This document shows positions 18,334 to 19,206 of a DNA stretch of 64,000 nt, one piece after another. This DNA comes from the human T2T-CHM13v2.0 reference genome, Homo sapiens: NCBI GenBank assembly GCA_009914755.4, contig CP068257.2, forward strand, positions 32,064,001 to 32,128,000, written 5' to 3'. A program made the translations under genes and the position numbers. Positions within the stretch are counted from its first letter, which is position 1. Each line of letters starts with the position of its first letter. Under the pieces are notes generated by a model. That model did not search any database and had not been told where the DNA came from. It saw only the letters and a program-made list of their open reading frames with translations.

Positions 18334-18460
18334 AGAAAGCAAGCCTAATCCGTTTATAAATGTTCCATTATATACAAAATACCCTTTCTACCAACAGTAG
18401 GTTCTTAATTACTGACACCAGGCATGCTTTGGTTGTGACTCCAGCAGCGCGGGTTGGTGG
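18334..18460 (+). repeat. Arm A of a local inverted duplication
   Basis: agcaagcctaatccgtttataaatgttccattatatacaaaataccctttctaccaacagtaggttcttaattactgacaccaggcatgctttggttgtgactccagcagcgcgggttggtggcat. Its reverse complement matches 18847..18967 with about 3 mismatches over the central 105 bp. Confidence 0.9.
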
Positions 18461-18731
18461 CATCTTACACTGAACAGCCTGGGCCTCCACTCTCCCCTTC
18501 TGTAAATTTTGCCTGTCACTAATTGTTTGGGCCCAGTTTCTTCATTTATATAAGAGGATTATAAGATTTTTGTGAGGGGATGGTCAATAATTAAGTGAAA
18601 AACAGATGATGTATGTTCATAATCACCTTTTAGTCTCTAGGTCATTAAGCCTAGATTAGCCTATTTTGGTGTATTAGAAATTTGCTGATTATCTGGACTA
18701 TGTATTAGTAGTACATGTAGAAGATTTCTTT

Positions 18732-18736
<5 letters not shown>

Positions 18737-18772
<36 letters not shown>
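18737..18772. repeat. (GT)18 microsatellite
   Basis: read directly. Confidence 0.95.
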
Positions 18773-18777
<5 letters not shown>

Positions 18778-18780
18778 TAT

Positions 18781-19206
18781 AGATGTGGTCTCACTCTGTT
18801 TCCCAGGCTGAAGTGCGGTGGTGCAATCTCAGCTCATGCAATGCCACCAATCCATGTTGCTGGAGTCACAACCAAAGCATGCCTGGTCTCAGTAGTTAAG
18901 AACCTACTGTTGGTAGAAAGGGTATTTTGTATATAATGGAACATTTATAAATGGATTAGGCTTGCTTAGGCCTGGGTTCAAGCAATCCTTCCGCCCTAGA
19001 CTCCTAAGTAATTGGAACTATAGGCACATGCCACCACGCCCAGCTAGTTTTTTTGTATTTTTTGTAGAGACGGGGTTTTGCCACGTCACCCAGAACAGCC
19101 TTGAACTCCTGTGACTGTTGTGGGAAATTGATCTAGACTCAAGTGATCTCCCTGCTTCGGCCTCCAAAAGTGCTGGGATTACAGGTGTGAGCCACTGTGC
19201 CTGGCC
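18781..19206 (-). mobile_element. Alu, antisense, interrupted: 18781..18846 and 18968..19206 are the Alu, and the roughly 120-bp non-Alu arm B lies between them; a further small insert at about 19110..19136
   Basis: AGATGTGGTCTCACTCTGTTTCCCAGGCTGAAGTGCGGTGGTGCAATCTCAGCTCATGCAA | insert | CCTGGGTTCAAGCAATCCTTCCGCCCTAGACTCCTAAGTAATTGG ... GAGCCACTGTGCCTGGCC. Confidence 0.8.
18847..18967 (-). repeat. Arm B of the inverted duplication, sitting inside an antisense Alu
   Basis: tgccaccaatccatgttgctggagtcacaaccaaagcatgcctggtctcagtagttaagaacctactgttggtagaaagggtattttgtatataatggaacatttataaatggattaggcttgctt. Confidence 0.9.

What the first reader, a model, noticed from the sequence alone, without database searches (positions are those of the whole stretch)
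18334..18967. About 125-bp inverted duplication (about 97% identity) with a 390-bp spacer; one arm interrupts an Alu
Seen in sequence: the reverse complement of 18847..18967 matches 18334..18460. The central roughly 105 bp differ at only about 3 positions, with looser similarity extending about 25 bp further (..ccagcagcgcgggttggtggcat vs ..ccagcaacatggattggtggcat). Arm A lies in unique sequence. Arm B sits exactly where the antisense Alu at 18781..19206 is broken: the Alu stops after ..CAGCTCATGCAA and resumes at CCTGGGTTCAAGC. It looks as if about 120 bp of nearby unique DNA was copied in inverted orientation into the Alu. This would fit replication template switching or gap repair using a nearby ectopic template, rather than transposition. 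A (GT)18 tract sits immediately 5' of arm B. In ITSN1 pre-mRNA the two arms could pair into a roughly 110-bp near-perfect stem with a 390-nt loop, much more perfect than an Alu:Alu duplex. Such high identity suggests a recent event or ongoing conversion.
Basis: seen in the sequence. Interest (0 to 1): 0.5.

Follow-up and report, generated by a model that had tools for sequence, protein, structure and literature searches.

The report
Old inverted copy inserted into Alu
A 127-base stretch of DNA upstream of the first coding exon of the human ITSN1 gene was copied backwards into a break in a nearby Alu repeat roughly 25 million years ago, which is a real but ordinary scar of DNA repair or replication error.

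Summary
The inverted repeat is real. Arm A (18337-18463) and the reverse complement of arm B (18841-18967) align over 127 nt without gaps at 120/127 identity (94.5%), with 377 nt between them. It is the most similar repeat pair in the 64-kb window.

Arm B sits inside an old antisense Alu. The two Alu halves are collinear. Nine consensus bases are missing, a 3-nt filler (AGG) is present, and there is 1 nt of junction microhomology. There is no target-site duplication, poly(A) or terminal inverted repeat. So B is a DNA-templated inverted copy of A. It fits a "3-2-1-4" template switch or fold-back-primed synthesis at a break sealed by end joining. It is not a transposition and not a repeat-family pair.

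Six of the seven differences are transitions, and three are CpG decay in B. K2P distance is 0.058, giving about 24-29 My (Poisson range about 9-57 My). This is not recent, and conversion need not be invoked.

ITSN1 exons lie on the + strand downstream. The sense RNA would form a 127-bp stem with only two true mismatches. No evidence of function was found. No orthologue data could be reached.

Verdict: a new member of a known kind, of low to moderate interest.

The parts
18337..18463 (+). Arm A: the source copy (127 nt), in sequence not repeated elsewhere in the window; retains 3 CpGs
18464..18840 (.). Spacer (377 nt). Contains a weak MIR-like core at 18528-18564, the Alu T-rich tail with (TG)18.5 at 18736-18772, and the left (3'-terminal) piece of the antisense Alu at ~18780-18840
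18475..18483 (+). CAGCCTGGG: 9-nt exact inverted microhomology with 18802-18810, 12 nt inside arm A's inner end. Possible anchor for the fold-back; not collinear with the arms
   Evidence: a match of 9 nt or more in 9 of 2000 shuffles; found post hoc
18802..18810 (+). CCCAGGCTG in the Alu left piece, partner of 18475-18483, 31 nt from arm B's inner end
18780..18841 (-). Left piece of the old antisense Alu. Ends ..CTCA-TGCAA. Base A18841 is shared with arm B (1-nt junction microhomology)
18841..18967 (-). Arm B: inverted copy of arm A inserted in the Alu. All 3 CpGs have decayed to TpG/CpA
18968..18970 (.). AGG: 3 nt that match neither arm A's flank nor the Alu consensus (junction filler)
18971..19206 (-). 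Right piece of the same Alu. Resumes at CCTGGGTTC (consensus CCCGGGTTC); 9 consensus nt are lost at the junction. The whole Alu is 80.4% identical to the window's Alu consensus

Best explanation
Arm B is a one-off, DNA-templated inverted duplication. A DNA 3' end located in an old antisense Alu, after ..CTCATGCAA at about 18840, came from either a stalled nascent strand or a resected double-strand break. It folded back onto, or switched to, a strand of its own polarity 377 nt upstream. It copied 18463 down to 18337 (127 nt) and was then released. It rejoined the Alu 9 nt further on, with a 3-nt filler.

In the four-point template-switch model this is event type 3-2-1-4, with point 3 = 18337, point 2 = 18463, point 1 = 18840/41 and point 4 = 18968-71. 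In double-strand-break terms it is fold-back-primed synthesis captured by end joining.

Shown:
- the arms are coextensive and ungapped;
- arm B interrupts collinear Alu halves;
- the junction features are as described.

Inferred:
- the direction of copying (A to B);
- the enzymology;
- the age, roughly 24-29 My, so a catarrhine or early hominoid ancestor;
- neutral drift since the event.

A by-product is that transcripts of the + strand, the ITSN1 sense strand, can form a 127-bp duplex with 5 G.U pairs and 2 true mismatches. This is probably an ADAR substrate in the nucleus that is removed with the intron. No function is indicated.
For: - Arms are 127 nt, ungapped, 94.5% identical and inverted.
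- There are only two copies in 64 kb, including at blastn sensitivity of about 65% identity.
- It is the highest-identity repeat pair in the window.
- The Alu halves flanking arm B are collinear and in the same orientation. Nine consensus nt are lost, with an AGG filler and 1 nt of microhomology.
- The arm has no TSD, no poly(A) and no terminal inverted repeats.
- The Alu is 80.4% identical to consensus, among the oldest in the window. The arms differ by only 5.5%, so the copy is much younger than the Alu.
- Six of 7 differences are transitions, and 3 are CpG decay confined to B.
- A 9-nt exact inverted microhomology lies in the inner flanks (9/2000 shuffles).
- Type 3-2-1-4 events that create inverted repeats made up 31% (together with their mirror type) of high-confidence human-chimp template-switch events (PMC5453318).
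- Fold-back inverted insertions of 2 to about 150 bp, made by Pol delta plus NHEJ with 0-5 bp junction microhomology, are documented in yeast (PMC11724301).
- Palindromic and templated de novo complex indels occur in the human germline (PMC4448676).
Against: - No outgroup sequence could be obtained. The pre-insertion state is therefore inferred from the Alu consensus, and the date rests on 7 differences and on textbook substitution rates.
- Junction microhomology is only 1 nt. The 9-nt inverted match is offset (12 versus 31 nt) and cannot itself have primed the copy.
- A 127-nt copy from 377 nt away is longer and more distant than the events usually modelled. Those are tens of nt, with a search space of +/-100 nt (PMC5453318, PMC7954356).
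- A replication template switch and break repair cannot be told apart from the sequence alone.
- Error-prone synthesis at the time of copying could have produced some differences. That would make the event younger than estimated.
Confidence: 0.8

Rival explanations
1. RNA-templated patch (class 2 templated sequence insertion). A fragment of nascent ITSN1 intron RNA containing arm A was reverse-transcribed, and the cDNA was ligated by end joining into a double-strand break in the Alu.
For: The insert size of 127 bp is within the reported 73-414 bp range. The absence of TSD and poly(A), together with a microdeletion, microhomology and non-templated nucleotides, are the stated class 2 features (PMC5110952; junctions). 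The donor lies on the sense strand of a transcribed gene.
Against: Class 2 donors are described as distant and scattered over the genome. Here the donor is 377 nt away on the same molecule, which a local DNA fold-back explains directly. For an RNA patch this proximity would need tethering of nascent RNA. No RNA-specific mark such as splicing or a poly(A) tail is present.
Confidence: 0.08
2. The two arms are independent copies of a (young) interspersed repeat family, or the terminal inverted repeats of a DNA transposon or MITE spanning 18337-18967.
For: No repeat library (Dfam) could be run, so family membership was not tested directly. The inner ~44 nt of arm A may overlap the end of a MIR-like element (weak: z 3.6).
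Against: - The arms are exactly coextensive and ungapped, which is not expected of independent truncated insertions.
- There are no other copies in 64 kb.
- Neither arm has a TSD, poly(A) or internal TIR, and the target lost 9 nt instead of being duplicated.
- The left Alu piece lies inside the supposed element and the right piece outside it. A single TIR element therefore cannot explain the layout.
- MIR copies are far too diverged to give 94.5% identity. blastn with the MIR consensus does not reach significance at this position, although it finds other MIRs in the window.
Confidence: 0.04
3. The repeat is older than it looks and is kept similar by gene conversion between the arms, or by selection for the RNA stem (a functional hairpin in ITSN1 intron 1).
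For: Five of 7 differences are G.U-compatible in the sense-strand RNA, so the stem has only 2 true mismatches. The sense strand folds better than the antisense strand (-323 versus -287 kcal/mol).
Against: Five of 6 transitions being wobble-compatible has a binomial p of about 0.11 (own calculation), so it is not significant. There are no compensatory double changes. The differences look like ordinary CpG and transition decay. At 127 bp and 94.5% identity the arms make a poor conversion substrate in mammals (established knowledge). No Rfam family matches.
Confidence: 0.05
4. Assembly or sequencing artefact (a fold-back chimera).
For: Fold-back chimeras do produce inverted duplications in some library types (established knowledge).
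Against: An artefact would be 100% identical. These arms differ at 7 sites in a CpG and transition decay pattern, and the copy is embedded cleanly within collinear Alu halves.
Confidence: 0.01

Closest known systems
Template-switch mutations, four-point model, type 3-2-1-4 / 1-4-3-2 (Loytynoja & Goldman 2017, PMC5453318)
   Same: The inserted fragment is the reverse complement of nearby upstream sequence. The switch-point order is 3-2-1-4. The interval between points 1 and 4 is replaced. The event creates a new inverted repeat or hairpin.
   Different: The copy is 127 nt and the jump is 377 nt, whereas the events modelled are tens of nt within about +/-100 nt. A 3-nt unexplained filler sits at the return junction. 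The event is about 25 My old, not human-chimp age.
Fold-back-primed templated inverted insertions at double-strand breaks (Pol delta synthesis plus NHEJ capture; PMC11724301), and the related SD-MMEJ / Pol theta 'snap-back' insertions (PMC5728401, PMC2943611)
   Same: An inverted copy of sequence on the same side of the break. Its size is within the reported 2 to ~150 bp range. One junction carries end-joining marks (filler, microdeletion, 0-1 nt microhomology). An inverted microhomology lies near the loop.
   Different: The loop is 377 nt versus 41 nt in the yeast system. The 9-nt microhomology is not at the priming terminus. The event is in a mammalian germline and its enzymology is unknown.
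Class 2 templated sequence insertion polymorphisms (Onozawa et al.; PMC5110952)
   Same: Comparable size, no TSD or poly(A), and NHEJ-type junctions.
   Different: The donor is local (377 nt away) rather than distant. There is no evidence for an RNA intermediate. Whether the insertion is polymorphic was not testable here; at the estimated age it would be expected to be fixed.
Intronic inverted-repeat Alu (IRAlu) dsRNAs and the genome-wide 'non-repetitive dsRNA' class (dsRNAscan, PMC11838218)
   Same: It would form a long intramolecular dsRNA in a pre-mRNA intron, which is the typical setting of ADAR substrates.
   Different: The arms are not Alus. Pairing is 98% with G.U (94.5% Watson-Crick), against about 80% for Alu pairs in this window. 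At 127 bp it is below the >300 bp length that paper used for putative MDA5 substrates.

Membership tests
Template-switch mutation (four-point model, 3-2-1-4) | The fragment between points 2 and 3 is the reverse complement of nearby reference sequence | tested here: met
   127 nt, ungapped, 94.5% identical
Template-switch mutation (four-point model, 3-2-1-4) | Switch points are ordered 3<2<1<4, with F1 and F3 collinear | tested here: met
   18337 < 18463 < 18840 < 18968-71; the Alu halves are collinear and in the same orientation
Template-switch mutation (four-point model, 3-2-1-4) | The ancestral or outgroup sequence lacks the fragment | not testable with these tools
   No primate orthologue was reachable. 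The Alu consensus serves only as a proxy for the ancestral state.
Template-switch mutation (four-point model, 3-2-1-4) | Short range: a fragment of tens of nt, with the template within about 100 nt | tested here: not met
   127-nt fragment, 377 nt away, versus the ranges given in PMC5453318 and PMC7954356
Fold-back-primed inverted insertion at a DSB | An inverted microhomology at the priming 3' end | tested here: inconclusive
   1 nt at the junction (A18841/T18463). A 9-nt exact inverted match lies nearby but is offset by 12 versus 31 nt. About 5% sequence change since the event blurs the junctions.
Fold-back-primed inverted insertion at a DSB | The second junction is sealed by end joining (0-5 nt microhomology, filler, small deletion) | tested here: met
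   AGG filler, 9 consensus nt lost, no microhomology
Fold-back-primed inverted insertion at a DSB | Dependence on Pol delta / NHEJ factors | not testable with these tools
   Requires genetics; the event is ancient
DNA transposon / MITE with terminal inverted repeats | A target-site duplication flanking the element, and element-internal layout consistent with a single insertion | tested here: not met
   No TSD around either arm or around 18337-18967. The target lost 9 nt. The left Alu piece lies between the arms and the right piece outside them.
LINE-1-mediated retroposition (class 1 TSI / retrocopy) | TSD, a poly(A) tail and a TTTT/A target site | tested here: not met
   None of these is present at the arm B junctions
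Class 2 templated sequence insertion | NHEJ-type junctions without TSD or poly(A) | tested here: met
   features as listed in PMC5110952
Class 2 templated sequence insertion | The donor is a distant, transcribed locus (RNA-derived) | tested here: not met
   The donor is 377 nt away on the same strand continuum. RNA origin is not testable.
Known structured RNA family (Rfam) | A covariance-model match at or above the gathering score | tested here: not met
   Only sub-threshold Alu-derived hits (SRP, mir-1268, mir-3135 and similar); nothing on the arms

The most novel reading that the evidence does not exclude
The copy created a 127-bp duplex in the ITSN1 sense transcript that is 98% paired when G.U pairs are counted. 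This duplex has since been retained because it matters, for example as a strong non-Alu ADAR-binding or hyper-editing site that affects processing of the first intron or use of exon 2. The excess of wobble-compatible differences (5 of 7) would then reflect selection on the stem. A milder version is that this is an unusually long-range germline template switch (a 127-nt copy after a 377-nt jump), showing that such events extend well beyond the ranges current detection models search.
Probability: 0.05. Interest if true: 0.5.

Novelty: new member of a known kind. Interest (0 to 1): 0.25.

Why it matters
This is a clean natural example of a local inverted templated insertion, because the interrupted Alu acts as a built-in record of the pre-insertion sequence. 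It shows that fold-back or template-switch copying in the primate germline can reach 127 nt from 377 nt away, which is outside the search range of the current short-range template-switch detectors read here. It also shows how a long, nearly perfect non-Alu dsRNA can arise in an intron in a single step. In itself it is a neutral scar, and nothing found here suggests a biological role.

Tried and rejected
- Orthologue or extra-copy search by exact 21-23-mers of the arm in JGI metagenome contigs, GTDB genome contigs and IMG/VR: 0 hits in all five scans. These collections evidently do not hold this human locus.
- Rfam at permissive E-value over 17500-19800: only Alu-derived sub-threshold hits.
It finds real MIRs elsewhere in the window (for example 35853-36019, E 3e-16), so the consensus is usable. 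Its match to the spacer is weak: core 18528-18564 scores 17 against shuffles of 11.2 +/- 1.2 with a shuffle maximum of 17, and the full-length alignment 18420-18659 has z 3.6. blastn is not significant there. I treat it as tentative and do not rely on it.
- The second extra segment in the same Alu (~19110-19137) was searched for a local template: only chance-level 12-19-nt hits.
- The bacterial promoter/terminator scan is irrelevant to a human intron and was ignored.
- Selection on the stem: wobble-compatible transitions 5 of 6, p about 0.11, so rejected as evidence.
- The 9-nt inverted microhomology was considered as the priming site. It was rejected as the primer because its offsets (12 versus 31 nt) do not fit. 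It is kept only as a possible anchor.

Full report
**Observation**

The inverted repeat is real. The repeat finder reports arms 18337-18463 and 18841-18967: 127 nt, 94% complementary, 377 nt apart. A local alignment gives the same ungapped 127-nt block with 120 identities.

Its description of a ~97% core with a looser inner end is accurate. Three differences lie in 18337-18446 and four lie in 18447-18453.

This is far beyond chance. The blastn E-value within the window is 4e-53, and the arm has no other copy in the 64 kb. That remains true with a scoring scheme sensitive to about 65% identity.

In an all-against-all comparison of the window, this is the most similar repeat pair of at least 60 nt among 2273 pairs. 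The rest are essentially Alu:Alu pairs. For the 1671 pairs of at least 100 nt, median identity is 80.6% and the 99th percentile is 88.7%.

**Anatomy**

I built an Alu consensus from 42 near-full-length Alus of this window and aligned it to 18700-19230.
- An antisense Alu begins with its T-rich tail, which carries a (TG)18.5 microsatellite at 18736-18772.
- The Alu runs to ..CTCA-TGCAA at 18841 and is interrupted there.
- It resumes at 18971 with CCTGGGTTCAAGC (consensus CCCGGGTTCAAGC, a CpG transition) and continues to about 19206.
- The two halves are collinear and in the same orientation.
- Nine consensus bases (CCTCTGCCT) are missing at the break.
- Three bases (AGG, 18968-18970) match neither the Alu consensus nor the continuation of arm A.
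- One base (A18841, pairing with T18463) is shared by the Alu and the arm.
- Neither arm has a flanking direct repeat, a poly(A)/poly(T) end or internal terminal inverted repeats.

**Direction and nature of the event**

Arm B is bracketed by two halves of one Alu, so B is the derived copy and A the source. The arms are exactly coextensive and ungapped. Independent insertions of a repeat family would not show this.

A single element with terminal inverted repeats is excluded by the layout. The left Alu piece lies between the arms and the right piece lies outside them. Transposition and L1-mediated retroposition are excluded by the lack of a TSD and poly(A), and by the loss rather than duplication of target bases.

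What remains is DNA-templated copying in inverted orientation from 377 nt upstream. A 3' end at about 18840 used a strand of its own polarity as template. That strand was either itself (fold-back) or the equivalent parental strand at a fork. It copied 18463 down to 18337, was released, and was rejoined 9 nt further along the Alu.

In the four-point template-switch model this is type 3-2-1-4. That type creates an inverted repeat and, together with its mirror type, made up 31% of high-confidence human-chimp events (PMC5453318).

In break-repair terms it matches the hybrid mechanism shown in yeast. One end primes Pol delta synthesis on a fold-back, and the other end captures the product by NHEJ with 0-5 bp of microhomology. 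Those insertions range from 2 to about 150 bp (PMC11724301).

Palindromic and neighbour-templated complex indels also arise de novo in the human germline (PMC4448676).

The filler and the microdeletion lean towards an end-joining step. However, the sequence alone cannot separate a replication switch from break repair.

A 9-nt exact inverted match lies in the inner flanks: 18475-18483 CAGCCTGGG and 18802-18810 CCCAGGCTG. A match of 9 nt or more occurred in 9 of 2000 shuffles of the two 60-nt flanks. It could have stabilised the fold-back. It was found post hoc, and its offsets (12 versus 31 nt) mean it was not the priming terminus.

**Age**

Of the seven differences, six are transitions and one is a transversion. 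Three are at CpGs that arm A retains and arm B has lost (CCG>CCA, CGCG>CATG). This explains the 'looser' inner end.

The Kimura two-parameter distance is 0.058. At 1.0-1.2e-9 substitutions per site per year (established primate averages, from my own knowledge), this gives about 24-29 My. The Poisson range on 7 events is about 9-57 My.

The host Alu is 80.4% identical to the window consensus, among the most diverged Alus here. So the copy long post-dates the Alu.

The event is therefore not recent, and gene conversion need not be invoked. One caveat is that mutagenic synthesis during copying could have introduced some differences at birth.

**Transcript context**

A tblastn search with an ITSN1 protein sequence recalled from memory found coding exons on the + strand, beginning at 36607 (with the ATG), 38955, 40362 and about 52819. 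The ATG exon spans 36576-36636, with the ATG at 36607. It has a splice acceptor (..ttacag|G) and a donor (GGTG|gtaagt).

The concatenated window translations match PDB Intersectin-1 EH1 domain entries 2khn and 3fia at E about 1e-71.

No 500-bp window in the 64 kb meets CpG-island criteria. The promoter and exon 1 are therefore probably upstream of the window, and the repeat would lie in intron 1 on the sense strand. This is an inference.

Folded as RNA, 18320-18985 on the + strand has an MFE of -323.4 kcal/mol, against -180 +/- 6.6 for shuffles (z -21.8). The stem is interrupted at only two positions, because five of the seven differences become G.U pairs. The antisense strand folds at -287.3 kcal/mol.

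Five of six transitions being wobble-compatible on the sense strand is not significant (binomial p about 0.11). There are no compensatory double changes, and no Rfam family matches the arms. So there is no evidence for selection on the stem.

Genome-wide prediction places non-repetitive dsRNAs at about 2 per Mb. It also finds that 96% of predicted dsRNAs in protein-coding genes are intronic (PMC11838218). This duplex is a member of that known class. At 127 bp it is below the >300 bp length that paper used for putative MDA5 substrates.

**What could not be done**

No primate orthologue, population data, repeat library or RNA-seq was reachable.
- Exact-word scans of three public collections found nothing.
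- A protein search with the junction-spanning ORF found nothing.
- A MIR consensus from memory detects genuine MIRs elsewhere in the window but matches the spacer only weakly. I do not rely on it.

**Verdict**

Its 'recent or converting' inference and the position it gave for the (GT)n tract are not supported.

The feature is a well-preserved scar, roughly 25 My old, of a known mutational process. It is somewhat longer and longer-range than the events usually catalogued. It is a new member of a known kind, of low to moderate interest.

Noticed in passing
window 19110-19137: The same Alu carries a second extra segment of about 25-28 nt (tgtgactgttgtgggaaattgatctaga) between consensus ..GAACTCCTG and ACCTCAGGTGATC. 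No template for it exists anywhere in the 64-kb window (only chance-level 12-19-nt hits).
   Followed up: partly
window 17874-18168 (-) versus 19294-19586 (+); also 19139-19206 versus 19293-19360: Oppositely oriented Alus flank the finding and are 79-86% complementary. One tight Alu:Alu hairpin has only 86 nt between its arms and draws sub-threshold Rfam mir-1972 hits. These would compete with or stack on the 127-bp stem in the pre-mRNA.
   Followed up: no
window 36576-36636, 38955-~39050, 40362-40430, ~52819-52986 (+): The first coding exons of ITSN1 (EH1 domain; PDB 2khn/3fia, E about 1e-71). The ATG is at 36607, in an exon with a clear acceptor and donor.
   Followed up: yes
whole window: No 500-bp window meets CpG-island criteria (GC > 0.55 and observed/expected > 0.6), so the ITSN1 promoter appears to lie outside the window. 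At least 42 near-full-length Alus are present in the 64 kb.
   Followed up: partly
window 18736-18772; also 20858-20895, 29421-29479, 41862-41898: (TG)n/(GT)n microsatellites. The one at 18736-18772 has grown in the tail of the interrupted Alu.
   Followed up: no
A much weaker MIR-like core lies in the spacer at 18528-18564.
   Followed up: partly
window 18475-18483 and 18802-18810: A 9-nt exact inverted microhomology (CAGCCTGGG / CCCAGGCTG) lies just inside the two arms. It is rare by chance (9/2000 shuffles) but not collinear with the arms.
   Followed up: yes
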